This document shows, piece after piece, positions 28,101-62,860 of a DNA stretch of 62,860 nt. The stretch is from positions 1 through 62,860 of the forward strand of contig CAYJWM010000003.1 in assembly GCA_964373885.1 (NCBI GenBank). Reading direction: 5' to 3'. A program made the position numbers and the translations under genes. Numbering within the stretch: position 1 is the stretch's first letter; the number at the start of each line of letters is the position of its first letter. The stretch comes from an uncultured bacterium (GTDB taxonomy: Bacteria; Omnitrophota; Omnitrophia; Omnitrophales; Danuiimicrobiaceae). A model generated the notes under the pieces. That model saw only the letters and a program-made list of their open reading frames with translations. It had not been told where the DNA came from and ran no database searches.

Positions 28101-28249
28101 GCGGCGGGAATTTGCCGCAGGGCACCGGCGGTTTATTCGCTCCAGCGGCGAATAACCGCCTGTGCTCTCGCCATTCGAACTCGCCAAAAAACGGCGAGAC
28201 CAAGCTTCGAATGGCTCCGAGAACTACCCTGCGACGAAATTCCCGCCGC
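28101..28249 (+). repeat. about 149-nt multi-hairpin structured element, copy A (possible ncRNA or REP/MITE-like element)
   Basis: The outer stem GCGGCGGGAATTT...AAATTCCCGCCGC encloses two parts. The first is a hairpin, GGCGGTTTATTCGC-tccagcg-GCGAATAACCGCC. The second is a nested hairpin, GCCATTCGAA(CTCGCC-aaaaaac-GGCGAG)...TTCGAATGGC. Homologous in architecture to 32723-32871. Confidence 0.7.
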
Positions 28250-32724: not shown

Positions 32725-32871
32725 GAGGGGCGAGAACCGCCGTTCGGCATCGGCGGTTCGGCCGCTCCAGCGGCGGCCGACCGCCTGCGCTCTCGCCGTT
32801 CCGATCCGCCTTCGGCGGAACCGAGCTCGGAACGGCTGCGAGAGCTGCCTCACGTCAGTCCTCGCCCTCTT
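32723..32871 (+). repeat. about 149-nt multi-hairpin structured element, copy B
   Basis: The outer stem AAGAGGGGCGAG...CTCGCCCTCTT encloses two parts. The first is GGCGGTTCGGCCGC-tccagcg-GCGGCCGACCGCC. The second is GCCGTTCCGA(TCCGCC-ttc-GGCGGA)...TCGGAACGGC. Same architecture as 28101-28249 with compensatory stem changes. Starts inside the thpR stop codon. Confidence 0.7.
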
Positions 32872-33494: not shown

Positions 33495-35248
33495 CCAATA
33501 GGGGAGCTTCCATGTCCCTTGATGCGACAAATGAACGGCTGCTGAAAAAAATAGTCGCAAAAAAACTGCTCAAAGAAAGCGACGCAGCGCTGCTCCTTAA
33601 CGAAAAAGCCAATACCCAGCAAACACTTGTGGAAACGATTTTGCACCGCAAGCTTGTGACGGAAGAATCGCTGTGTTCGTTTTTGGCCAATGAATTTAAA
33701 TGCCCCATCGTCAAACTTTCCGTCTTCATCCCTTCCCAGGAAGCGCTTAATTTGATTCCGGCCAATTTTGCCCATAAAAACCGCGTGATTCCCGTCTCTT
33801 TTGAAAACCGGTCTCTTACGGTTGCGATGGAACGTCCGGATGACCTCCAATTGATCGACGATTTGCAGGCCATTACCGATATGCGGATTCGGGTAGCGGT
33901 TGCGTTCCCGAGTGAAATGACGCGTGCGCTGGAACGGTATTATGGAGCCAAAGGGGCGCCCCTATTGCCGCCGGCCGGAGAAAGCATTGAGGATTTGATT
34001 CGTATTGTACAGGAATCCAAGGCCAGCGAGAGGGAAGTAAAAACAGTGGAACTGCTGAAGCAGGCGCAGGAAACCCCCGTCATCAAAATTGCCAACTTGC
34101 TGATGGTGGAGGCCATTCGGCGAAGAGCCAGTGACCTTTTTATTGAACCGTGGGAAAACTCCGTACGGGTCCGCTGCCGCGTGGACGGGCTTTTGGAAGA
34201 GGTGCCGCCCCCGCCCAAAGCCGTGGGTTCGGCGCTTGTGTCCCGCTTCAAGGTAATGAGCCAGTTGGACATCGCCGAGCGGCGCATCCCACAGGACGGG
34301 CGGTTCCGCATCCGCGTCCAAAACCGGGAAGTGGACGTGCGTGTCTCGATTCTACCCACCGGTTTCGGAGAAAAAGTGTGTCTGAGAATTTTGGATAAAA
34401 AGGCGCAAGCGCAAAGTTTGGAGCGATTGGGATTTACCGTTTTGGAGCAGGACACCATCAAATCATGCGCCGTCAAGCCGCACGGGATGATTTTGGTGAC
34501 CGGACCTACCGGAAGCGGTAAAACGACCACGCTTTACTCCATTCTCAAGTTTTTGGATTCACCCGAGAAAAACATTACGACGGTTGAAGACCCGGTGGAG
34601 TATCAAGTGGACGGGATCAATCAGGTGAATGTCCGCGAATCCATCGGGCTCACGTTTCCGGCTTCACTCCGGTCGATTTTACGCCAAGACCCCGACATCA
34701 TTTTAATCGGGGAAATACGCGATCTGACGACCATGGACATCGCGATCAAGGCCGCCTTAACGGGGCATTTGGTATTGAGCACGCTTCATACCAATGATAC
34801 CGCAACCACCATTGCGCGCATTCTCAATATGGGAATTGAGCCGTTCCTGATCACTTCGTCCGTGCTCATGATTTCGGCCCAGCGCCTCGTGCGCCGCTTG
34901 TGCCAGGAGTGCAAGGCCGAGTATGTGCCGGACGCGAAGTTTTTAAAACGGCTGGAACTGGCGGACGGGAAGCATACTTTTTTCAAACCAGCAGGGTGCG
35001 GAAAATGCCGTTCGAGCGGATATGCGGGCCGGAGCGTGATCACGGAATTAATGCTGCTGACCTCCCATATCAAGGACATGATTGTGGCGCGGGCCGGCGC
35101 CGATGAGATCAAGAAAGCGGCAAGACAGGAAGGAATGAATACGCTGAGAGAGAGCGCGATTCAAAAAGCCCTTGCAGGGGAAACATCGCTGGATGAAGTA
35201 TTCCGGGTGACGGCGATGGACACGGCGCTCGCGGAAGGAGACGAATAA
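33491..35248 (+). CDS. type IV pilus / T2SS assembly ATPase, GspE/PilB class, copy 1
   Basis: 585 aa with an N-terminal T2SSE_N domain and Walker A GPTGSGKTT. Also has Asp box, Walker B ILIGEIRD, His box GHLVLSTLHTND and a tetracysteine CQEC...CGKC. ATGA overlap with the upstream gene; alternative ATG at 33512. Confidence 0.88.
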   Translation: MTNRGASMSLDATNERLLKKIVAKKLLKESDAALLLNEKANTQQTLVETILHRKLVTEESLCSFLANEFKCPIVKLSVFIPSQEALNLIPANFAHKNRVIPVSFENRSLTVAMERPDDLQLIDDLQAITDMRIRVAVAFPSEMTRALERYYGAKGAPLLPPAGESIEDLIRIVQESKASEREVKTVELLKQAQETPVIKIANLLMVEAIRRRASDLFIEPWENSVRVRCRVDGLLEEVPPPPKAVGSALVSRFKVMSQLDIAERRIPQDGRFRIRVQNREVDVRVSILPTGFGEKVCLRILDKKAQAQSLERLGFTVLEQDTIKSCAVKPHGMILVTGPTGSGKTTTLYSILKFLDSPEKNITTVEDPVEYQVDGINQVNVRESIGLTFPASLRSILRQDPDIILIGEIRDLTTMDIAIKAALTGHLVLSTLHTNDTATTIARILNMGIEPFLITSSVLMISAQRLVRRLCQECKAEYVPDAKFLKRLELADGKHTFFKPAGCGKCRSSGYAGRSVITELMLLTSHIKDMIVARAGADEIKKAARQEGMNTLRESAIQKALAGETSLDEVFRVTAMDTALAEGDE

Positions 35249-35249
35249 G

Positions 35250-36965
35250 ATGAAAGCCGCTTATTCTCCCACTCTGGTTGAGATTCTTAAAAAATCGCAT
35301 GCGGTTTCTGCCGAGAACTTGAAGCACGCCCAAGAGCTTCAAAAGCAAACGGGGAAAAAGTTAATTCATATTTTGGTGGATGAGGGGATGCTGAACGAAA
35401 AAGAGCTGACGATTTTGCTCAGTTCCACCCTCGGGATCCCCGCGTTAAACTTAAATTCGTATCGCGTCAATCCCGCAGTGGTGAAACTCATCCCGAGGAA
35501 AATCGCGGAGCGTTACGAACTTTTTCCGCTGGCCCATATCGGCGAATCCATTACGGTGGCCATGAGTGATCCGCTCGATGTGTATGCGCTCGATGATGTG
35601 AAGCAGATCACTCATTGCAAGGTGTGCCCCGTCATTTCACCTTCCAAAGACATTCAGTCGGCCATTGAAAATTATTATTCCGAAACGGTCAATTTCGATG
35701 AATTGATGGAGGATTTGGATCCGGATTCGGTGGAAGTGATCACCACCGCTCCGGGCAGGGAGGTTGCGGAAGAAAGCACGTCTCCGGCTGACGATGCGCC
35801 CGTGATCCGCATGGTGAATTTGATTTTGCAGGAGGCCATTAAAAGCCGCGCCTCGGACATACACTTTGAGCCGTTTGAAGACCGGCTGCGCATCCGTTAC
35901 CGTATCGACGGCGCTCTTCATGAAGCGTTTTTGCCTCCGCGCGAAATGTACAGCGCGCTCCTGACACGAATGAAGATTATTTCCGATCTCGACATTACGG
36001 AAAAACGGCTCCCGCAGGACGGCCGTTTCAAGGCGCGTTTCGACACCCGCGAAATCGATTTCCGGGTTTCCATACTTCCGATTTATCACGGCGAAAAAAC
36101 GGTGCTCCGAATTTTGGATAAGGCAAGTCTAAAGGGAAATTTGGATCAGCTTGGGTTTACGCCGGACAGTGTCGAAAAACTTCAGCAGGCCATTAAAAAA
36201 CCCTATGGGATGACGCTGGTGACGGGACCTACGGGAAGCGGGAAGTCTACGACCCTTTATTCCATTTTGAATCAAATGAATACGCTGGAGCGAAACATCA
36301 TGACCATTGAAGATCCCGTGGAATATCAAATCATGGGCATCACTCAAACGCAGGTGAATGCCGATATCGGGCTTAGCTTTTCCAACGGGCTGCGCGCGCT
36401 TCTGAGGCAAAGTCCGGACATTATTCTGGTGGGTGAAATCCGGGATACCGAAACGGCCGATATCGCGGTGAAGTCGGCGCTGACGGGACATTTGGTGTTC
36501 AGCACGCTTCATACCAATAGCGCGGCGGGCGCCATTTCGCGCTTGATTGACATGAATGTGGAGCCGTTCCTCATTGCTTCTTCGCTGATTGTGGTGACGG
36601 CCCAGCGCCTCATGCGCCGGATCTGCCCGCAATGCAGCGAGCCCTGCGATATTCCGGAGTCTTTGCTGAAGCGGCTGCCTCATAATTTGGCATGGCCCAA
36701 GGGAGCCGAAAAGAAGGGTTATCACGGGAAAGGGTGCAAGCAGTGCAAGAATACGGGCTACTACGGGCGGCTTTCCACGATGGAAGTGTTGATGATTGAT
36801 GAGGAAATCCAACAGCTGATCATCAATCGCAGGTCGGCGCATGAAATTGAGGCGCTCGGGCGCAAGAAGGGGATGCGCACGCTTTTTGAAGACGCGTTGA
36901 TTTCGTTTTTAAACGGCCGCACGACGCTTGAAGAAGTGTTCCGAATCACAACGTTTGAAGATTAA
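35250..36965 (+). CDS. pilB: type IV pilus assembly ATPase, GspE/PilB class, copy 2
   Basis: 571 aa with an N-terminal T2SSE_N domain, GPTGSGKST, ILVGEIRD, GHLVFSTLHTNS and a tetracysteine CPQC...CKQC. Directly upstream of pilC. Confidence 0.88.
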   Translation: MKAAYSPTLVEILKKSHAVSAENLKHAQELQKQTGKKLIHILVDEGMLNEKELTILLSSTLGIPALNLNSYRVNPAVVKLIPRKIAERYELFPLAHIGESITVAMSDPLDVYALDDVKQITHCKVCPVISPSKDIQSAIENYYSETVNFDELMEDLDPDSVEVITTAPGREVAEESTSPADDAPVIRMVNLILQEAIKSRASDIHFEPFEDRLRIRYRIDGALHEAFLPPREMYSALLTRMKIISDLDITEKRLPQDGRFKARFDTREIDFRVSILPIYHGEKTVLRILDKASLKGNLDQLGFTPDSVEKLQQAIKKPYGMTLVTGPTGSGKSTTLYSILNQMNTLERNIMTIEDPVEYQIMGITQTQVNADIGLSFSNGLRALLRQSPDIILVGEIRDTETADIAVKSALTGHLVFSTLHTNSAAGAISRLIDMNVEPFLIASSLIVVTAQRLMRRICPQCSEPCDIPESLLKRLPHNLAWPKGAEKKGYHGKGCKQCKNTGYYGRLSTMEVLMIDEEIQQLIINRRSAHEIEALGRKKGMRTLFEDALISFLNGRTTLEEVFRITTFED

Positions 36966-41019: not shown

Positions 41020-41469
41020 ATGAAGAGAAGAATTCAAGGTTTCACCCTCGTTGAGCTGATTATCGTGATTGCCATTATTGGTATCGTTGTCGCGATTACG
41101 ACTTCGAGCTACCTGGCTGCCCGCGTCAATGCCAATGAAGGAGGTGTGAAGGGGGCCCTAAAGGGCGTTCAAAGCGCCTGCATTACCTATCGCACCGAGC
41201 AGGGCGCCTATCCTCCCGATCTTGCGACTATGGGGTCCACTTATTTGGGCGGGGGGCTCGAGACAGGTGATAAGTCCGGGTATCTTTATGAATTGCGCAA
41301 CGGTAGCGGCGGAGAAACATATACGACTACTGCAGTTCCCAAATCAGCGAATTTTACGGGTGTGAGAAGTTACTGTACCGACGCCTACAATGTCATTTAT
41401 TCTTATAATACAGCTACCGTTACGGGCAATGGAGTTTCCTGTCCTCCGGGTGGGACAGCTTTGAGTTAG
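41020..41469 (+). CDS. pilA: type IV pilin (prepilin with class III signal peptide)
   Basis: 149 aa. MKRRIQG|FTLVELIIVIAIIGIV has Gly-1, Phe+1 and Glu+5 plus a hydrophobic N-terminal helix. The C-terminal domain contains cysteines. Confidence 0.9.
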   Translation: MKRRIQGFTLVELIIVIAIIGIVVAITTSSYLAARVNANEGGVKGALKGVQSACITYRTEQGAYPPDLATMGSTYLGGGLETGDKSGYLYELRNGSGGETYTTTAVPKSANFTGVRSYCTDAYNVIYSYNTATVTGNGVSCPPGGTALS

Positions 41470-41895: not shown

Positions 41896-42387
41896 ATGAA
41901 CACATTACATGGAAAAAAAGGTTTCACCCTTGTGGAAATTATGATCGTGGTGGCCATTATCGGTCTTTTGGCCGCGATCGCGATTCCGAACTTGCTTCGC
42001 GCCCGAATCAACTCCAATGACAGTGCAGTGCAGGGCGATTTGAGGGCGTTCAGCACGGCCAACGAAAGTTGCCGAGCAGCACAAGCACCTCCAAACTACT
42101 GTGTACTGGGAGGCGCTGGCACCGCGAGCTTGACTGGTGCCGTTCCACCGTATTTGGATGCAACATGGGTGCCTGGTGCAGTTGCCTCGAGACATGGGCA
42201 CACAATAGTTTATGCGGTGCCCGGTGCACCCGCTTCGACGTATTCACTGATGGCTACTTTGATACCAAACCAATCAGCGAAAACTTTTTGTATTGACCAC
42301 ACCGGCGTTCTCCGTGGTCCTACTCCTGCTGGTGCTATGCCGACAGGTACAGCAGCTGGTTGTGCTGGTGGACAAGCAGTAACTTGA
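41896..42387 (+). CDS. type IV pilin, second paralog
   Basis: The ATG at 41896 is preceded by AAAGGAGG. MNTLHGKKG|FTLVEIMIVVAIIGLLAAIAIPNLLRAR. Four Cys in the C-terminal domain. The ORF track extends to 41833 but that start lacks an RBS. Confidence 0.9.
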   Translation: MNTLHGKKGFTLVEIMIVVAIIGLLAAIAIPNLLRARINSNDSAVQGDLRAFSTANESCRAAQAPPNYCVLGGAGTASLTGAVPPYLDATWVPGAVASRHGHTIVYAVPGAPASTYSLMATLIPNQSAKTFCIDHTGVLRGPTPAGAMPTGTAAGCAGGQAVT

Positions 42388-43052: not shown

Positions 43053-44174
43053 ATGAAAAGAAGTCTTGAAAGTGCGATCAAAAAAGATTTGGACGACAAA
43101 ATTGTCCTGTTGAGCGGACCCCGCCAAGTAGGAAAGACCACTCTTGCAAGAGCGCTTTACCCCAAAAATTCAGAATATTTTAATATCGATAATGAAGAAG
43201 ACCGGCTGTTGATCCGAAGGACTGCATGGAGACGCGACTGTGACTTGGTCATTTTTGACGAGCTCCACAAGCTTAAGAAATGGAAAAACTGGATCAAGGG
43301 GATTTATGATAAGGAAGGAGTAAACCCTCGGCTTCTTGTAACAGGGTCCGCGCGGCTTGACGCCTACCGGCGCGGAGGCGATTCTCTTGCCGGCAGATTT
43401 TATTCCTACCGGCTTCATCCTTTTTCGGTGGCAGAGGTGAAAGAGCAATATCCGGCAGATGAAGCGTTTGATCGGATCCTGCGGTTCGGAGGATTTCCGG
43501 AGCCATTCCTCAAGGCGAATGAAACAGCGGCAAAAAGATGGCGGCGCTCTCATGCAGACCGGATTTTGCGGGATGACCTGCGTGATATCGCTTCAGTGCG
43601 GGACACGAGGGGAGTCGGCACCCTTGTCGAGCTGCTTCGCCAATCCGTAGGGAGCACCATTTCCTATGAGTCTCTTTCACGCGATTTACAGGTTTCCCCT
43701 CATACGGTCAAGTACTGGATCGGCATGCTGGAAAGTCTTTTTATCCTGTTTATTGTGACCCCTTACTCCCGCAATATCGCCCGGAGTCTTCTTAAGCAGC
43801 CCAAAATTTACTTTTACGATACGGGTTTTGTAAAAGAAGACCCAGGCGCCAGATTTGAAAATGCCGTCGCTTGCGCTTTGCTCAAACGGCTTCATTTTCT
43901 TGAAGATATGGGGGGTGACAAGTGCGCCCTCCACTATCTGCGGGACAAGGACAAAAGAGAAGTAGATTTCGTGACGATCCGGGACGGAAAACCGGAGTTT
44001 TTGATCGAGACCAAATTATCCGATCCAGAAACCCCTTCTCTTGAGCATTTCAAGAGTTTTTTTGGCAGCCAGATTGAACCTGTCATCCTCGTCAAGAATA
44101 TCAAACGCGAACTTTTTCTTAAAGGGATTAAAATCAAAAAGGCAAGCCAGTGGCTTCAAACCCTTGAAGCATAG
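43053..44174 (+). CDS. AAA+ ATPase with C-terminal PD-(D/E)xK-like module (COG1373 / AAA_14-DUF4143-type), copy 1
   Basis: Walker A GPRQVGKTT and Walker B LVIFDELH. C-terminal HYLRDKDKREVDF...FLIETK fits a D...ExK nuclease-fold motif. Paralog of 59406-60626. Confidence 0.8.
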   Translation: MKRSLESAIKKDLDDKIVLLSGPRQVGKTTLARALYPKNSEYFNIDNEEDRLLIRRTAWRRDCDLVIFDELHKLKKWKNWIKGIYDKEGVNPRLLVTGSARLDAYRRGGDSLAGRFYSYRLHPFSVAEVKEQYPADEAFDRILRFGGFPEPFLKANETAAKRWRRSHADRILRDDLRDIASVRDTRGVGTLVELLRQSVGSTISYESLSRDLQVSPHTVKYWIGMLESLFILFIVTPYSRNIARSLLKQPKIYFYDTGFVKEDPGARFENAVACALLKRLHFLEDMGGDKCALHYLRDKDKREVDFVTIRDGKPEFLIETKLSDPETPSLEHFKSFFGSQIEPVILVKNIKRELFLKGIKIKKASQWLQTLEA

Positions 44175-58824: not shown

Positions 58825-59325
58825 ATGACTTCCTCGTTATTTAAGATCCGGACTTTTCCGGATCCCGTGCTGCGCAAAATTTCGCTGCCCGTAACAAAAA
58901 TAGACCCCGCACTTCTCGCGTTTGTCAGAAAACTTGAGGAAACCATGGAAGCCCAACCGGGCGGAATCGGGATTGCAGCCCCCCAAGTGGGTGTTTTAAG
59001 GCAAGTTGCGATCGTAGATGTATCGCCAAAGGAAGCCGGCACCCAACGGCTCATTTTGATCAATCCGGTCATTTTAGAGCGTTTTGAGGAGAAGATCGTC
59101 AGGGAGGGGTGTATGAGCTTGCCGCATTATACCGCCAATGTCACGCGGGCCGGGCGGATTCGGCTTCGCTGGTTTGATTTGGAGATGAGGCGGCGGGAGA
59201 AAGTATCCTCGGAGTTAGAAGCAATTTGTATTCAACATGAGGTGGATCATTTGAACGGAATGCTGTTTTTGGACCGGGTGGGCTGCCTTAATAGCGATGT
59301 GTTTCGCCGCAAACGCTACTTGTAA
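58825..59325 (+). CDS. def: peptide deformylase (full length)
   Basis: 166 aa with motif 1 GIGIAAPQVG, motif 2 EGCMSLP and motif 3 HEVDHLNG. Confidence 0.93.
   Translation: MTSSLFKIRTFPDPVLRKISLPVTKIDPALLAFVRKLEETMEAQPGGIGIAAPQVGVLRQVAIVDVSPKEAGTQRLILINPVILERFEEKIVREGCMSLPHYTANVTRAGRIRLRWFDLEMRRREKVSSELEAICIQHEVDHLNGMLFLDRVGCLNSDVFRRKRYL
58929..59313 (+). repeat. 385-bp direct repeat, copy 1 (inside def)
   Basis: Identical by eye over its full length to 60695-61079. Confidence 0.9.
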
Positions 59326-59358
59326 CTTTTTCTTTATTCTTCAATAACGCCCTATCTG

Positions 59359-59386
59359 CTCTAAAAAAGTCTTGACTTTTTTAGAG
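59359..59386. repeat. 28-bp perfect palindrome overlapping the cassette promoter -35
   Basis: CTCTAAAAAAGTC-tt-GACTTTTTTAGAG, two 13-bp arms. Confidence 0.7.
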
Positions 59387-59399
59387 TATGGTCTAATAT
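59372..59399 (+). promoter_or_regulatory. promoter candidate for ATPase copy 2 (TTGACT-16 nt-TAATAT), ATG 6 nt after the -10
   Basis: TTGACT at 59372-59377 and TAATAT at 59394-59399. The ATG is at 59406 with no Shine-Dalgarno, giving a leaderless-like geometry as for copy 1. Confidence 0.45.
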
Positions 59400-59405
59400 T
59401 TAGGC

Positions 59406-60626
59406 ATGATCCCGAGAACTGCTTTAAATACCGTTTCAACCATTACGGAACGTTACCAGAAGATGGTATTTTTGACCGGTCCGAGACAGGTTGGCAAGAC
59501 CACGCTTGCTCAGGGCTATCAAAAACAATTCTCCCAAAGCTTTTATTTCAACTGGGATGATCTTCATCACCAAAAAATGCTGGCCAAGGAGCCCTATTTT
59601 TTTGAGAAGCAAAATAGGGATCCCAAAAAGCCTTTTCTTGTGGTTTTGGATGAAATTCACAAATATGCCCGCTGGAAGAATTATCTCAAAGGAGCGTTTG
59701 ACAGCTTCGGGAAAGAATTTCTTTTTTTAGTGACCGGGAGCGGACGCCTTGATCTTTTTAAAAAAGGGGGTGACAGCCTTCTTGGCCGGTATTTCAGCGT
59801 AAAACTTTTCCCCTTAAGTGTTGGGGAATTAGAGCAATCTTTTCCGTCTCTTTCTGATTTCAAATCCCGCTTACAGGAAATGCCGGAATATTCAAAAAAG
59901 AGAAGGGGAACCTATGAACAGCTCTTTGAGATGAGCGGATTTCCGGACCCATTTCTCAAAGCTGAAAAGAAATTTTACCATCTCTGGTTTAAAGAACGGA
60001 AATCTTTACTGCTCCGGGAAGATATTCGGAATGCGGCCAACATCCGTGAGCTCTCACTTTTGGAAATATTTTCTCATCTCATTCCCGGCCGCATTGGCAG
60101 CCCTCTGTCTTTAAATGCGCTTCGTGAAGATACCGGCGTCGCTTTTGAAACCATTCGGGACTGGACGCTCGTTCTTGAGCAGTTTTATTATTTGTTTCGT
60201 CTTACCCCCTATTTCAAAAACGTGGCGCGTGCCTTGAGAAAGGAAACAAAGGTGTATCTGTACGATTGGGTGGAAGTGGAAGATCCCGCGCTTAGGTTTG
60301 AAAACATAGCGGCTTTGCATTTGTGGAAAGCCGTGAATATGTGGCAGGACCAGGGTGAAGAAGCGATATCGCTCCACTATCTTCGCGATAAGGACAAGCG
60401 GGAAGTCGATTTTGCCCTTGTTCACAAAAAAAGCCCCTTTTGTTTGATTGAGTGCAAAGCGGGGCAGGATGAGATGTCACCGTCTTTGGTTTATTTTCAA
60501 AAGAAATTAAATGTTCCTATAGCGGTTCAACTCGTTCATCAGCCGGGAATCTGCAAAAAAATGAAGGACGGCAGTTTGACCCGCTGGGTCATTTCCGCCG
60601 ACCGCTGGCTCGCGCTTTTACCTTAA
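59406..60626 (+). CDS. AAA+ ATPase with C-terminal PD-(D/E)xK-like module (COG1373 / AAA_14-DUF4143-type), copy 2
   Basis: 406 aa with Walker A GPRQVGKTT and Walker B LVVLDEIH. C-terminal HYLRDKDKREVDF...CLIECK. Confidence 0.8.
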   Translation: MIPRTALNTVSTITERYQKMVFLTGPRQVGKTTLAQGYQKQFSQSFYFNWDDLHHQKMLAKEPYFFEKQNRDPKKPFLVVLDEIHKYARWKNYLKGAFDSFGKEFLFLVTGSGRLDLFKKGGDSLLGRYFSVKLFPLSVGELEQSFPSLSDFKSRLQEMPEYSKKRRGTYEQLFEMSGFPDPFLKAEKKFYHLWFKERKSLLLREDIRNAANIRELSLLEIFSHLIPGRIGSPLSLNALREDTGVAFETIRDWTLVLEQFYYLFRLTPYFKNVARALRKETKVYLYDWVEVEDPALRFENIAALHLWKAVNMWQDQGEEAISLHYLRDKDKREVDFALVHKKSPFCLIECKAGQDEMSPSLVYFQKKLNVPIAVQLVHQPGICKKMKDGSLTRWVISADRWLALLP

Positions 60627-60659
60627 TCTTGCATGACTGCTTAAAACAGTTGTCTCATC

Positions 60660-61091
60660 ATGGATACACAAATCCAGGGTCAAGGAAAGGAGGAAAAACT
60701 TGAGGAAACCATGGAAGCCCAACCGGGCGGAATCGGGATTGCAGCCCCCCAAGTGGGTGTTTTAAGGCAAGTTGCGATCGTAGATGTATCGCCAAAGGAA
60801 GCCGGCACCCAACGGCTCATTTTGATCAATCCGGTCATTTTAGAGCGTTTTGAGGAGAAGATCGTCAGGGAGGGGTGTATGAGCTTGCCGCATTATACCG
60901 CCAATGTCACGCGGGCCGGGCGGATTCGGCTTCGCTGGTTTGATTTGGAGATGAGGCGGCGGGAGAAAGTATCCTCGGAGTTAGAAGCAATTTGTATTCA
61001 ACATGAGGTGGATCATTTGAACGGAATGCTGTTTTTGGACCGGGTGGGCTGCCTTAATAGCGATGTGTTTCGCCGCAAAAAATATCTCTGA
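60660..61091 (+). pseudogene. 5'-truncated duplicate of def (lacks the first ~35 codons, retains all three catalytic motifs)
   Basis: From KLEETMEAQPGG to FRRK the protein is identical to def. The N-terminus is replaced by the unrelated MDTQIQGQGKEE. The last residues are KYL rather than RYL. Confidence 0.7.
60695..61079 (+). repeat. 385-bp direct repeat, copy 2
   Basis: Identical by eye to 58929-59313. Confidence 0.9.
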
Positions 61092-61093
61092 TT

Positions 61094-62827
61094 TTACGAT
61101 TTACTCTGTTTCGAATATAGTGTCGCGATGCGAACCCTGGCCAAATCCATTTCCGGGTTTAAACGCAAGGCAGTTTCAAAAAAGCGGATTGCTTCATCGG
61201 TTTTTCCTTGCAAATGGTACATTTGACCCAGATTGAAATAAGCGGAAGCATTGCTTGGATTTAACGAAATGGCGTGGCAGGTATATGCGATCGCTTCTTT
61301 TAACTTTCCCTTTTTCGCTGACGCATTTCCGAGGTTTATGTAGGCCCCGTGGTGGTTGGGATTGATTTCAAGCGCTTTGGCGTACTGCTCAATTGCTTCG
61401 TCAAGCTTACCTTTTTCCTCCAACGCCACCCCTAGATGGTTGCGGGCGATTATTTGTTCCGGCGCAAGTTGTACCGCTTCCCGAAAATGTGAAATAGCGG
61501 AATCCACCTCGCCACGTTCAAATAGCGCAATCCCAAGGCCTTGATGTGCGATCGCACTCTGGGGCCGCTTTGCCAGGGTATCGCTCCAGATTGAAATGGC
61601 GCTTTGATATACGGCGTTGCGCTGGATGGTAAGGATGCTGAGTGTGAGCAGGGAAGTGAGTAGGATCCCGAAACTGATGTATCTAGGGTTTTTGCCCTGC
61701 ATCTTTGTGCGGGTGAATATGAAATGGAGCAATTTATGGACTGTGATGACGGTAAGGACTACAAGCACCGCAAGGGGCAGATACATGCGCCGATCCGCGG
61801 CAGGCCCTGAATTGGGATGGAAAAAGCTTGAGGTGGGGGCAAGAAAAAGAAAAAAAGAAAGCCCTAGAAATCCGAGACTGCTTTTTCGCCAAAATAGCCA
61901 TAACGATGCTCCAAAGAGCAGTGCAATAAAAAAGGTGTGCGGGAGCACTTGGCGGAATGTTTGAATGAGAGGCCAATTGTAATCAAAGCACAAGGCGCGC
62001 GGCCAGAAGGCCAGTTTTAAATAATGGGTCAAGACTTCCATCTGTGTGGCTAAATACGGCAAACTAAAACTGTTTCGCGGGGCATTCATTCCCAATGTTG
62101 ATTGCGGAGGGTTAAAAATAAGCAGCCCGAAGAGAATGATCCAAGTTGAAAAGAGGGCCAAATAAAATGGCGCTCTCAAACGAAGCGGTTTCTTAAATGA
62201 TTTTGAGATGAATACGGCATCATATAAAAAAATGACGATCGGAGCTCCTACCATTGATTCTTTTGTGGCCATGCCCAAAGCACAGAATGTCACCGCCGTA
62301 ACGAGCCAATAAACACTTGCTGAAGATTGAAATCCCCGAATGGCGCAATAAAAAGTCGCAAGAAAAAAGAAACCCATAAAGGATTCGCTCCTTTGAATGA
62401 TATACGTCACGCTTTCCGTTTGAATCGGATGGGCAAGCCAAAGCAAGGCAGAGACAAGGGCAAGTGTTGTTGCCGCGCTTCCGCAGCTTTGCCGCAAAAA
62501 CCCGGACGAGAGCGTCCGCCGGATAATGGCGAAGAGGAGAACAGCGTTCAGACAGTGGACCGCAATATTGGTCAGCCGATAGCTCCGGACGTCCAATCCT
62601 GAAAAGTGATAATTCAGCGCCAATGAAAATACGGTGAAAGGTCTTCGTGGATCACCCAGAAAAAAGTTCTCAAGGGAAGTCAGGCGGCGGATGTAGGGAC
62701 TGTGTACAATGTAGGTGCTATCGTCAAAAATGAACGGCGCCGGAATGCTGTTCCAGTAGATGAGAACTGCCACGGTGCTGAAAAGTAACGGTATGAGAAT
62801 GCGTCTGTGAGATTCCAGGGCTTGCAC
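61094..62827 (-). CDS. polytopic membrane protein with C-terminal TPR repeats (PMT/TMTC-like putative glycosyltransferase)
   Basis: 577 aa with a GTG start. About 10 hydrophobic segments in the N-terminal 400 aa, then 4-5 TPR units (AIAHQGLGIALFERGEVDSAISHFREAVQL...). The only minus-strand gene; convergent with the def copy at a 2-bp gap. Confidence 0.65.
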   Translation of the reverse strand: MQALESHRRILIPLLFSTVAVLIYWNSIPAPFIFDDSTYIVHSPYIRRLTSLENFFLGDPRRPFTVFSLALNYHFSGLDVRSYRLTNIAVHCLNAVLLFAIIRRTLSSGFLRQSCGSAATTLALVSALLWLAHPIQTESVTYIIQRSESFMGFFFLATFYCAIRGFQSSASVYWLVTAVTFCALGMATKESMVGAPIVIFLYDAVFISKSFKKPLRLRAPFYLALFSTWIILFGLLIFNPPQSTLGMNAPRNSFSLPYLATQMEVLTHYLKLAFWPRALCFDYNWPLIQTFRQVLPHTFFIALLFGASLWLFWRKSSLGFLGLSFFLFLAPTSSFFHPNSGPAADRRMYLPLAVLVVLTVITVHKLLHFIFTRTKMQGKNPRYISFGILLTSLLTLSILTIQRNAVYQSAISIWSDTLAKRPQSAIAHQGLGIALFERGEVDSAISHFREAVQLAPEQIIARNHLGVALEEKGKLDEAIEQYAKALEINPNHHGAYINLGNASAKKGKLKEAIAYTCHAISLNPSNASAYFNLGQMYHLQGKTDEAIRFFETALRLNPEMDLARVRIATLYSKQSKS

Positions 62828-62860
62828 GATTATAATGTCCTATAATATATCTTATGTAAA

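What the first reader, a model, noticed from the sequence alone, without database searches (positions are those of the whole stretch)
58929..61079. Perfect 385-bp direct repeat of the def 3' part brackets a 1.38-kb single-gene ATPase cassette
Positions 58929-59313 and 60695-61079 read as identical over all 385 bp.
- The first copy completes an intact def (166 aa).
- The second copy is a def fragment. It lacks the first ~35 codons and has unrelated sequence upstream. It continues into a different C-terminal end (KYL* instead of RYL*) and then directly into the convergent TPR gene.
- The 1381 bp in between carries only a promoter, a 28-bp perfect palindrome and one AAA+/PD-(D/E)xK ATPase gene.

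This topology is what a Campbell-type single crossover produces when a circular molecule carries a def fragment plus the ATPase gene. An element that brings its own replacement end for an essential target gene would give the same picture. No integrase, transposase or short target-site duplication is visible. The 100 percent identity implies a very recent event, ongoing gene conversion, or an assembly artefact.
Basis: partly seen in the sequence, partly recalled or inferred. Interest (0 to 1): 0.72.

Follow-up and report, generated by a model that had tools for sequence, protein, structure and literature searches.

The report
Duplicated def end brackets defence-gene cassette
A 385-bp piece of the essential gene def really is present twice around a single horizontally acquired candidate defence gene, and it looks like a scar of homology-driven recombination between two versions of a variable spot next to def, not the ends of a self-integrating mobile element.

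Summary
Positions 58929-59313 and 60695-61079 are identical over 385 bp, with no extension on either side. All four junctions also appear in independent assemblies of the same Omnitrophota species.

- The end after copy 1 (KRYL* plus 30 nt) is the ancestral def flank, shared with the two nearest relatives.
- The rest of that ancestral flank resumes only after the TPR gene, at 62832.
- So about 3.48 kb (59356-62831) is inserted relative to the relatives: ATPase cassette, 68-nt spacer, def 3' fragment ending KKYL*, and TPR gene.
- KKYL* is a natural def end. The window therefore carries two alternative def-flank alleles in tandem, sharing the repeat.

The ATPase belongs to PDC-S01 (AAA_14 + DUF4143), a common unvalidated defence candidate. 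It travels as a 1.27-kb operator-promoter-ORF module, seen in at least five unrelated contexts. No integrase or transposase is present.

Best explanation: one homologous crossover in def plus one illegitimate joint, by Campbell-type circle integration or homology-facilitated illegitimate recombination.

Main caveat: the 1,766-bp unit is a cycle in the assembly graph. A circular, amplified or mixed state cannot be excluded without reads.

Similar brackets occur at other PDC-S01 loci: 6/53 versus 4/165 neighbouring ORFs.

The parts
58825..59325 (+). Intact def (peptide deformylase, 166 aa), ending RRKRYL*. Its start abuts the stop of the upstream ACT-domain gene.
   Evidence: ORF list. Pfam PF01327, E=1e-42. 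87% and 74% aa identity to the def of the nearest relatives, which also end KRYL.
58929..59313 (+). Repeat copy R1 (385 bp), running from the third base of def codon 35 to codon 163.
   Evidence: Exact identity with 60695-61079 and no extension on either side.
59314..59355 (+). Segment x: the last four def codons (CGC TAC TTG TAA) plus 30 nt of ancestral def-downstream flank ending ...ATAACGCCCTAT.
   Evidence: Aligns with the DNA after def in L007 (about 24 of 30 nt after the stop codon by eye) and in L006. BLAST of copy 1 against L007 runs to 59355.
59344..59355 (.). Left copy of an imperfect 12-nt direct repeat (ATAACGCCCTAT) at the boundary of the 3.48-kb insertion.
   Evidence: Relatives carry this 12-mer once. 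The window carries it here and at 62832-62843.
59359..59386 (.). Dyad-symmetric operator-like site, CTCTAAAAAAGTC-TT-GACTTTTTTAGAG, centred on the -35 box. It is also the left edge of the conserved ATPase module.
   Evidence: Single match in the window, none in 100 shuffles. Core is invariant and outer arms covary upstream of ATPases 42-100% identical: 94% of cells paired, 3 pairs with double changes, 0 of 500 shuffles reach the score. Homology to L008-L012, L099 and L102 starts at this site, and in L098 with a degenerate copy of it.
59372..59399 (+). Promoter-like site: TTGACT, 16 nt, TAATAT. The ATG lies 6 nt after the -10 box, which suggests a leaderless or near-leaderless mRNA (inference).
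   Evidence: Consensus scan. Conserved in every close copy.
59406..60626 (+). PDC-S01-type ATPase (406 aa): AAA_14 P-loop domain plus DUF4143, a PD-(D/E)xK-type domain. GC is 44.8% against 51% for the contig.
   Evidence: Pfam AAA_14 E=2.7e-28 and DUF4143 E=4.9e-21. PADLOC PDC-S01 E=1.8e-46. Invariant across 20 homologues: GPRQVGKTT, D82-E83, D335, E349 and K351. GC values.
60627..60694 (+). Spacer Z (68 nt), unrelated to def, to the other cassette copies and to the relatives' flank. Its right end is the illegitimate joint Z|R2.
   Evidence: No conservation after the stop codon among five cassette contexts. The junction k-mers are present in Logan contigs L001 and L002, from two sequencing runs.
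60695..61079 (+). Repeat copy R2 (385 bp): a def 3' fragment lacking codons 1-34.
   Evidence: Pfam match covers profile positions 32-150 only.
61080..61091 (+). Alternative def end AAA TAT CTC TGA (KYL*), 7 of 12 nt different from copy 1.
   Evidence: KKYL is a natural def C-terminus in 11 of the roughly 120 def homologues retrieved, most of which appear to be Omnitrophota; 46 end KRYL.
61094..62827 (-). Membrane protein with C-terminal TPR repeats (577 aa), convergent with the def fragment. It is part of the insertion relative to the relatives. GC is 47.9%.
   Evidence: Pfam TPR families. No homologue above 43% identity in 5.8 billion proteins; some homologues are labelled protein O-mannosyl-transferase by JGI. 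GC value.
62832..62860 (.). Resumption of the ancestral def-downstream flank: right copy of the 12-nt repeat (ATAATGTCCTAT) plus AATATATCTTATGTAAA. It continues past the window end in L003.
   Evidence: Window plus L003, positions 62833-62869, is 97% identical to L006 5984-6020 and 92.5% identical to L007 7721-7760, the DNA directly after def in both relatives.

Best explanation
The DNA just downstream of def is a variable accessory-gene spot in this Omnitrophota lineage. The window carries two alternative versions of it in tandem, joined through a shared 385-bp stretch of def.

- Version C: def ending KRYL*, 30 nt of ancestral flank, then a horizontally acquired 1.27-kb PDC-S01 module (dyad operator on the -35 box, promoter, AAA+/PD-(D/E)xK ORF).
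- Version T: def ending KKYL*, then a convergent TPR membrane-protein gene, then the rest of the ancestral flank.

The tandem arrangement arose by homology-driven recombination with one crossover in def and one illegitimate joint (Z|R2 at 60694/60695). Two routes fit:
(a) Campbell-type integration of a circularised fragment R-x-cassette-Z into a T-type chromosome.
(b) Homology-facilitated illegitimate recombination of linear DNA from a sibling strain, with the non-homologous end joined inside the region covered by the homologous anchor.

No site-specific recombinase is involved.

Consequence (inferred): the two repeats make the 1,766-bp unit precisely deletable, leaving an intact def-KKYL, or amplifiable by RecA-type recombination.

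Shown: the repeat, the junctions, the ancestry of both flanks, the foreign composition of the module, its sharp boundaries and its conserved operator.
Inferred: the recombination route, autoregulation through the operator, and any defence function.
For: Repeat and gene anatomy.

Junctions seen in independent assemblies of the same species (100% identical DNA):
- L002 is window 59284-60724, the unique part plus 30 nt of R at each end.
- L001 is window 58929-60724.
- L003 is D plus 30 nt of R.
- L005 ends 30 nt into R.
- L004 (GCA_947085775.1) ends at the last base of R.

Ancestry:
- Copy-1 end plus 30 nt is homologous to the relatives' def flank.
- The flank resumes after the TPR gene, 97% and 92.5% identical to L006 and L007.
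- Both relatives have a single def and neither the ATPase nor the TPR gene on the DNA recovered; L007's contig ends 292 nt after def.
- KKYL is a natural def end.

Foreign origin:
- Cassette GC is 44.2%, against 51.4 +/- 1.7% for 1.3-kb windows (minimum 47.2%).
- The same module is 84.6% nt identical in an unrelated context (L008-L012). Homologues at 79-83% aa identity sit in three more contexts.
- Homology begins at the palindrome and ends at the stop codon.

No recombinase.

Parallel scars at other PDC-S01 loci:
- L029 has a 41-nt repeat (88%). The upstream pump gene ends ...YPVLFAMWKEKESRSSSL*, and the displaced copy after the ATPase encodes ...YPLLFAMWKEREL* before a convergent gene.
- L072 has a 1,062-nt repeat (89%) of the 3' two-thirds of a HATPase_c_3 gene.
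- Overall 6/53 ATPase genes against 4/165 neighbouring ORFs are bracketed, p=0.015.
Against: - No reads were available, so the linear order A-R-x-cassette-Z-R-D rests on one deposited contig. The graph equally allows A-R-D plus a 1,766-bp circle or a tandem array.
- In run ERR4904391 the Logan contig closes the cycle and does not branch to D. That is unexpected for a single integrated copy at even coverage, though low coverage could explain it.
- Neither a pure C allele nor a pure T allele was found in any assembly.
- The donor of either allele is unknown.
- The 12-nt repeat at the edges of the 3.48-kb insertion differs at 2 positions while the 385-bp repeat is perfect. This requires at least two events of different age.
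- The bracket enrichment is modest, and its control ORFs come from the same, possibly accessory, neighbourhoods.
Confidence: 0.55

Rival explanations
1. Assembly-graph loop unrolled. The deposited contig threads once through a simple loop, but the true state is different or mixed: a chromosome with def-KKYL*-TPR (or another arrangement) plus the 1,766-bp unit as a circle, as a tandem array of several copies, or in a co-existing strain.
For: - L001 (1,796 nt, one 1,766-nt unit plus a 30-nt k-1 overlap) closes on itself, and R continues only into x in run ERR4904391.
- Every unitig-type assembly of this species breaks at R.
- Unitig assemblers cannot pass R twice, and loop resolvers traverse a simple loop once by default (own knowledge).
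- Identical copies are exactly what a collapsed node yields.
Against: - A 1.77-kb circle has no recognisable replication function, so it should not outnumber the chromosome.
- In ERR4904390 both exits from R exist (L002, L003), as a single integrated copy predicts.
- The Z|R junction is present in two runs and implied in a third. A molecule with the cassette followed by def 3' DNA therefore exists, so the duplication or circle is biological either way.
Confidence: 0.25
2. Autonomous single-gene mobile element. The PDC-S01 module integrates by means of its own AAA+/PD-(D/E)xK protein at or near 3' ends of genes. It creates long, variable target duplications or carries a replacement gene end.
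For: - Module boundaries are sharp and identical in at least five unrelated contexts.
- The family is very widespread, with 406-aa homologues at 60-65% identity retrieved from sources attributed to several phyla.
- Direct repeats of adjacent DNA bracket 11% of family members against 2.4% of neighbouring ORFs.
- Three loci show the same 'intact gene, ATPase, displaced 3' fragment' topology.
Against: - In the window the first repeat is followed by ancestral flank (x), not directly by the module. The duplication is therefore not a target-site duplication of the module.
- Repeat lengths range from 38 to 1,062 nt and identities from 82 to 100%, which fits recombination between diverged alleles better than staggered cuts.
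- The three closest other contexts have no bracket.
- No terminal inverted repeats or conserved 3' end were found.
- No PD-(D/E)xK/AAA+ protein is known to act alone as an integrase (own knowledge).
Confidence: 0.1
3. Older tandem duplication or second def paralogue, homogenised by gene conversion. A diverged def 3' fragment arrived with the TPR gene from another lineage or arose by duplication, and was later overwritten by the resident def sequence.
For: - The last 12 nt differ at 7 positions yet still encode a natural def end.
- The 12-nt flank copy next to TPR matches L006 rather than the window's own x. This suggests the TPR side came from another lineage.
Against: - Identity is perfect up to the very first base of homology at the Z|R joint. 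Conversion tracts rarely reach the edge of homology.
- R is only about 87% identical to the nearest relative, too diverged for efficient conversion.
- Relatives have a single def.
Confidence: 0.07

Closest known systems
PDC-S01 (PADLOC phage-defence candidate; Pfam AAA_14 + DUF4143; COG1373-type AAA+ ATPases)
   Same: - HMM matches at E=1.8e-46.
- Same two-domain architecture.
- Walker A/B and D...ExK residues invariant.
- Single-gene unit located in variable regions.
- Described as the fourth most common candidate defence system, an ATPase fused to a PD-(D/E)xK domain, and not experimentally validated (PMC12988326).
   Different: - Nothing here tests defence.
- As far as I found, the conserved dyad operator on the -35 box, the sharp 1.27-kb module boundaries and the repeat brackets have not been described for this family (literature search).
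Campbell-type (single-crossover) insertion-duplication, as with non-replicating circles or suicide plasmids carrying an internal gene fragment
   Same: - Two direct copies of the homologous segment flank the inserted DNA.
- One gene copy is intact and the other truncated.
- The structure is reversible by recombination between the repeats.
   Different: - No vector, origin or circular form was demonstrated.
- The ancestral flank follows the first copy rather than the second.
- The presumed circle would have to be a chance-circularised chromosomal fragment from a sibling strain.
Homology-facilitated illegitimate recombination during natural transformation (described in Acinetobacter, Streptococcus pneumoniae and Pseudomonas stutzeri; recalled from memory, not checked here)
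   Same: - One homologous anchor (def, or the flank beyond TPR) plus one non-homologous joint (Z|R2).
- Brings in foreign DNA next to a conserved gene.
- Also accounts for the diverged brackets in L029 and L072.
   Different: - The classical cases mostly delete recipient DNA rather than duplicate the anchor.
- Competence of Omnitrophota is unknown.
- Microhomology at the joint could not be assessed without the donor sequence.
Integrative elements that insert into the 3' end of a gene or tRNA and carry a replacement end (attL/attR)
   Same: - Direct repeats flank the insert.
- The target gene remains intact because a second 3' end is supplied.
   Different: - No integrase in the bracket or in the window.
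- The repeat is 385 bp rather than a short core.
- The bracket holds one gene.
- The polarity of native and imported ends is reversed.
Integron gene cassettes
   Same: Single-ORF mobile units found in different contexts.
   Different: - The module has its own promoter and operator.
- It has no attC-like conserved 3' element.
- No IntI is present.

Membership tests
PDC-S01 (AAA_14 + DUF4143 candidate defence ATPase) | Significant match to the PADLOC PDC-S01 profiles | tested here: met
   PDLC04790, E=1.8e-46, residues 2-287; six further PDC-S01 profiles also match.
PDC-S01 (AAA_14 + DUF4143 candidate defence ATPase) | N-terminal AAA_14 P-loop domain followed by DUF4143, above Pfam gathering scores | tested here: met
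   AAA_14: 99 bits (cutoff 27). DUF4143: 75.6 bits (cutoff 28.1).
PDC-S01 (AAA_14 + DUF4143 candidate defence ATPase) | Catalytic residues intact (Walker A and B; PD-(D/E)xK-type D...ExK) | tested here: met
   GPRQVGKTT 25-33, D82-E83, D335, E349 and K351 are invariant in 20 homologues at 60-100% identity. Assigning D335/E349/K351 to the nuclease motif is my reading of the alignment.
PDC-S01 (AAA_14 + DUF4143 candidate defence ATPase) | Protects against phage | not testable with these tools
Integrase-driven integrative element in a gene 3' end | Tyrosine or serine recombinase encoded within or next to the bracketed DNA | tested here: not met
   Only one ORF with a Pfam match lies between the repeats. 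tblastn with two tyrosine recombinases (L008) and a DDE transposase (L099) finds nothing in the window below E=0.37. Serine recombinases were not searched for specifically.
Integrase-driven integrative element in a gene 3' end | The native flank follows the distal repeat; the element-borne replacement end follows the proximal repeat | tested here: not met
   The proximal repeat is followed by the flank shared with the relatives. The distal repeat is followed by a TPR gene absent from the relatives.
Transposon or insertion sequence | Transposase, terminal inverted repeats, short target-site duplication at the element ends | tested here: not met
   No transposase. No inverted repeats at the ends of the bracket or of the module. 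The only short repeat is an imperfect 12-mer (10 of 12) at the ends of the whole 3.48-kb insertion, which is inconclusive.
Single-crossover (Campbell-type) insertion-duplication | Two direct copies of a segment of the target gene flank the insert, one copy in an intact gene and one truncated | tested here: met
Single-crossover (Campbell-type) insertion-duplication | A circular form of repeat plus insert exists or existed | tested here: inconclusive
   Logan contig L001 closes a 1,766-nt cycle with a 30-nt overlap. A graph cycle is also what an integrated tandem repeat gives, and no reads were available.
Single-crossover (Campbell-type) insertion-duplication | The unoccupied target allele (def-KKYL*-TPR, full-length def) exists in the population | tested here: not met
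   No full-length def with the KKYL end was found. The 90% cluster of this def holds only the two window proteins among about 15 billion sequences. Exact look-ups found nothing. This is weak negative evidence, because other assemblies break inside def.
Integron cassette | Promoterless ORF followed by an attC recombination site | tested here: not met
   The module has its own conserved promoter and operator. There is no conserved sequence after the stop codon in five contexts.

The most novel reading that the evidence does not exclude
The 1.27-kb PDC-S01 module (operator, promoter, AAA+/PD-(D/E)xK ORF) is a self-mobilising single-gene element. Its own protein promotes integration next to or into the 3' part of resident genes by a homology-assisted route. 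This leaves long, variable duplications of the target, of which the perfect 385-bp def bracket is a fresh example and L029 and L072 are older ones.
Probability: 0.1. Interest if true: 0.85.

Novelty: new member of a known kind. Interest (0 to 1): 0.48.

Why it matters
PDC-S01 is reported as the fourth most common candidate defence system in prokaryotes, yet its function and its way of spreading are unknown.

This locus gives a clean, datable example of how such a single-gene unit is installed next to an essential gene without any recombinase of its own. It also leaves the unit poised for precise loss or amplification through 385-bp repeats.

Three by-products could be tested directly:
- the exact module boundaries;
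- a deeply conserved, covarying operator on the -35 box;
- a roughly five-fold excess of flanking direct repeats at family members.

They suggest autoregulation and a recurrent, homology-assisted mode of transfer.

The locus is also a caution for MAG users. A simple loop in an assembly graph is reported as a perfect tandem structure, and the identity of the copies cannot be taken at face value.

Tried and rejected
1. Looking for the TPR gene's neighbourhood in relatives. The genome-contig scan returned only distant TPR proteins at 24-29% identity. The 5.8-billion-protein search found nothing above 43%. The 'def convergent with TPR' arrangement could therefore not be found elsewhere.
2. Exact look-ups of the 166-aa def and the 143-aa fragment found nothing outside the window.
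3. Viral contigs contain neither the operator nor a close ATPase, so there is no sign of a phage vehicle.
4. Structure of the ATPase. The PDB sequence search gave one spurious hit. The AlphaFold model (pLDDT 70) matched only generic AAA+ folds such as RFC, MuB, IstB and McrB, at TM 0.26 or below. This gave no mechanistic lead.
5. Rfam and tRNA scans of the window were empty, so there is no tRNA-type attachment site.
6. The literature search for the run and assembly accessions found nothing. The search for DUF4143/AAA_14 returned almost only unrelated papers.
7. Target-site-duplication model for the 385-bp repeat: rejected, because ancestral flank and not the module follows copy 1.
8. Integron-cassette idea: rejected, because the module has its own promoter and no attC.
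9. Idea that spacer Z is diverged def 5' sequence, relatives' flank or cassette 3' UTR: no similarity found.
10. Tandem def paralogues as the ancestral state: relatives have one def.
11. The metagenome scan with the ATPase alignment used very general P-loop patterns. It mostly returned 36-46% paralogues rather than the close subfamily. These served for the bracket survey but not for tracing this cassette.
Full report
**1. The observation**

Window 58929-59313 and 60695-61079 are identical over all 385 bp, and the bases on either side differ at once. It is by far the longest repeat in the 62,860-bp window, and the window is a complete NCBI contig.

- Copy 1 lies inside an intact 166-aa def (58825-59325; Pfam Pep_deformylase, E=1e-42).
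- Copy 2 lies in a 143-aa ORF (60660-61091) that matches only profile positions 32-150.
- The ends are CGC TAC TTG TAA (RYL*) and AAA TAT CTC TGA (KYL*).
- The second stop is 2 nt from the stop of a convergent 577-aa TPR protein gene (61094-62827).
- The 1,381 bp in between carry a promoter-like site, a 28-bp dyad (59359-59386; 13-nt perfect arms, TT centre) and one AAA_14 + DUF4143 ORF (59406-60626).

**2. Independent support for the junctions**

The organism is an Omnitrophota bacterium, judging from the names on def homologues. Other assemblies of the same species, 100% identical in DNA, all break at the repeat:

- L002 (run ERR4904390) is exactly 59284-60724, the unique part plus 30 nt of R on each side.
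- L003 (same run) is the TPR segment plus the last 30 nt of R.
- L005 (ERR3478686) ends 30 nt into R.
- L004 (GCA_947085775.1) ends at the last base of R.
- L001 (ERR4904391) is 58929-60724, one 1,766-nt unit plus a 30-nt overlap with its own start.

All four junctions (A|R, R|x, Z|R, R|D) therefore exist in reads from more than one run. The unit R-x-cassette-Z is a cycle in the de Bruijn graph.

A unitig assembler cannot pass R twice. A path-extending assembler will unroll a simple loop once, and both passes give the same sequence (my knowledge of assemblers). The linear order in the contig and the '100 percent' identity are thus not independently proven. In ERR4904391 the graph leaves R only towards x, which could reflect low coverage or extra copies of the unit.

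**3. Which def end is ancestral**

The nearest relatives (L006, def 87% aa identity; L007, 74%) share the upstream synteny: RmuC, three small genes, BT1 transporter, acylphosphatase, CCA-adding enzyme, ACT protein, def. On the DNA recovered, each has a single def and neither the ATPase nor the TPR gene; L007's contig ends 292 nt after def.

Their def ends KRYL*. The 30 nt after the copy-1 stop (59326-59355...CAATAACGCCCTAT) align with their def-downstream DNA. In the relatives this flank continues as AATAyATCTTATGTAAA..ATAATAA.

In the window that continuation is found only after the TPR gene. Positions 62833-62869 (window end plus the L003 extension) are 97% identical to L006 5984-6020 and 92.5% identical to L007 7721-7760.

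Relative to its relatives, the window therefore has about 3.48 kb inserted (59356-62831): ATPase module, spacer Z, def fragment with the KKYL* end, and the TPR gene. An imperfect 12-nt repeat bounds it (ATAACGCCCTAT / ATAATGTCCTAT).

The KKYL* end shares no DNA similarity with the KRYL* end. It is nonetheless a natural def C-terminus, found in 11 of about 120 def homologues retrieved, against 46 with KRYL. By my own estimate, the chance of K/R-Y-L-stop arising at random is about 2e-5.

So def-KKYL*-TPR is a genuine but derived def-flank allele (T). def-KRYL*-x-cassette is another (C). The window holds both in tandem.

The TPR protein has no relative above 43% identity and a lowish GC of 47.9%. 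The cassette is clearly foreign, at 44.2% against 51.4 +/- 1.7% for 1.3-kb windows.

**4. The cassette**

The ATPase matches PADLOC PDC-S01 (E=1.8e-46). A 2026 survey describes this family as the fourth most common candidate defence system, an ATPase fused to a PD-(D/E)xK domain, with validation pending (PMC12988326).

Thousands of homologues exist, many of them 406 aa long and 60-65% identical, from sources attributed to several phyla. Walker A/B and D335...E349-x-K351 are invariant. There is no solved relative, and the predicted fold matches only generic AAA+ proteins.

A copy with 90% aa and 84.6% nt identity sits in a groundwater metagenome between a CBS gene and two tyrosine recombinases (L008-L012). 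Copies at 79-83% aa identity sit in three further unrelated contexts (L098, L099-L101, L102). In the closest copies DNA similarity starts at the left arm of the dyad and stops at the stop codon; in L098 the dyad is degenerate.

The unit that recurs is therefore a 1.27-kb operator-promoter-ORF module. The def repeat is not part of it.

The dyad core AAAAAGTCTTGACTTTTT is invariant upstream of ATPases only 42-46% identical, and the outer arm positions change in a compensated way. On ten sequences, 94% of cells are paired, three pairs show double changes, and 0 of 500 shuffles reach the covariation score.

The -35 box lies on the dyad axis and the ATG lies 6 nt after the -10 box. I infer an autoregulatory operator and a leaderless or near-leaderless transcript.

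**5. How the tandem structure arose**

The bracket and the window contain no integrase or transposase, no terminal inverted repeats and no tRNA.

- A target-site-duplication model fails, because ancestral flank and not the module follows copy 1.
- An integrase model fails on the missing enzyme and on the reversed polarity of native and imported ends.

What fits is one homologous exchange in def plus one illegitimate joint (Z|R2). Two routes give this:

- A circularised fragment R-x-cassette-Z from a C-type sibling integrates into a T-type chromosome (Campbell type).
- Linear DNA is integrated by homology-facilitated illegitimate recombination, with the non-homologous end joining inside the anchor region. 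This duplicates 385 bp.

The perfect identity right up to the first base at the joint argues that both copies came from the same or sibling genomes. It argues against later homogenisation of a diverged fragment, since R is only about 87% identical to the closest relative.

The abrupt end of identity at 61079/61080 is then the older crossover point that created the T allele.

**6. Is the topology recurrent?**

Among 80 more distant PDC-S01 loci from metagenomes and the closer ones, 6 of 53 ATPase genes with both flanks available are bracketed by direct repeats. The criteria were at least 30 nt, at least 80% identity and inner ends within 600 nt of the ORF. Only 4 of 165 neighbouring ORFs meet them (odds ratio 5.1, p=0.015).

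Two loci repeat the window's pattern:

- L029: an RND-pump-like gene ends ...YPVLFAMWKEKESRSSSL*. Directly after the ATPase stop, a 41-nt copy (88%) encodes ...YPLLFAMWKEREL* before a convergent gene.
- L072: the 3' two-thirds of a HATPase_c_3 gene (1,062 nt, 89%) lies on both sides of the ATPase, intact on one side and truncated on the other.

The diverged copies there fit recombination between alleles of different lineages. The three closest contexts of this cassette have no bracket. The enrichment is suggestive, not conclusive.

**7. Verdict**

- The Campbell or 'replacement end' interpretation is partly supported in topology. It is corrected in polarity, in extent (a 3.48-kb mosaic insertion that includes TPR) and in cause (general homologous plus illegitimate recombination at a variable spot, not a self-integrating element).
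- The main open point is physical: integrated single copy versus circle, amplification or strain mixture. Only reads can settle that.
- The most novel reading still allowed is that PDC-S01 modules promote their own homology-assisted insertion. I give it about 10%.

Noticed in passing
window 59359-59386; L008 9101-9128; L102, L099, L046, L019, L021, L023, L024, L098 upstream of their ATPase genes: The dyad operator core AAAAAGTCTTGACTTTTT, with -35 TTGACT on its axis, is invariant upstream of PDC-S01 ATPases down to 42% protein identity. The outer arm positions covary (CTCTA/TAGAG, CTCTG/CAGAG, GTCTA/TAGAC, CTCGG/CCGAG). The ATG lies 6-12 nt after the -10 box in the closest copies (window, L008, L098, L099, L102), which suggests autoregulation and leaderless mRNA.
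   Followed up: yes
L072 4484-5539 and 7125-8167; L029 5878-5918 and 7219-7259; L093 2312-2370 and 3800-3858: Other PDC-S01 genes are bracketed by direct repeats of adjacent DNA: 1,062 nt at 89%, 41 nt at 88% and 59 nt at 97%. In L072 and L029 the repeat is the 3' part of a neighbouring gene, intact on one side and a fragment on the other. Overall the rate is 6/53 against 4/165 neighbouring ORFs.
   Followed up: partly
window 43095-44156 (+): A second AAA_14/DUF4143-type paralogue (36% identity to the cassette ATPase, tblastn E=4.5e-72). No copy of the operator was found near it.
   Followed up: partly
L003 1-148, which continues the window past 62860 to about 63008: Just beyond the contig end lie two tandem CTTACGGTACCC units and a 14-nt perfect inverted repeat (GTACCCCTTCCAAA ... 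TTTGGAAGGGGTAC). The Logan contig ends there and the window contig ends about 150 nt before it. This suggests a further repeated or structured element at the far side of the insertion.
   Followed up: no
window 28114-28185 and 32739-32810: Two 72-nt intergenic elements (75% identical) lie directly after ORF ends. Each forms a strong hairpin whose arms differ between the copies but stay complementary (MFE -35.4 and -37 kcal/mol; z-scores -4.7 and -2.1). They have no Rfam match.
   Followed up: partly
L099 4727-5596, 6001-7221 and 8182-9357: In one relative context the 79%-identical ATPase sits after a DDE_5 transposase gene. A second AAA_14-DUF4143 paralogue lies 1 kb downstream. In L099 and L102 the ATPase lies just upstream of RF-1-domain genes (peptide-release-factor type), another translation-related neighbour like def.
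   Followed up: no
window 34736-34913 / 36459-36636 and 41036-41153 / 41918-42035: Two further diverged direct repeats (178 nt at 71%; 118 nt at 70%). They are probably adjacent paralogous genes.
   Followed up: no
L006 6043-8259: In the closest relative the DNA after def and its conserved roughly 60-nt flank carries two unknown genes and a ParE/Phd toxin-antitoxin pair. Each of the three genomes has different DNA beyond the conserved flank, so this position is a variable accessory-gene spot in the lineage.
   Followed up: partly
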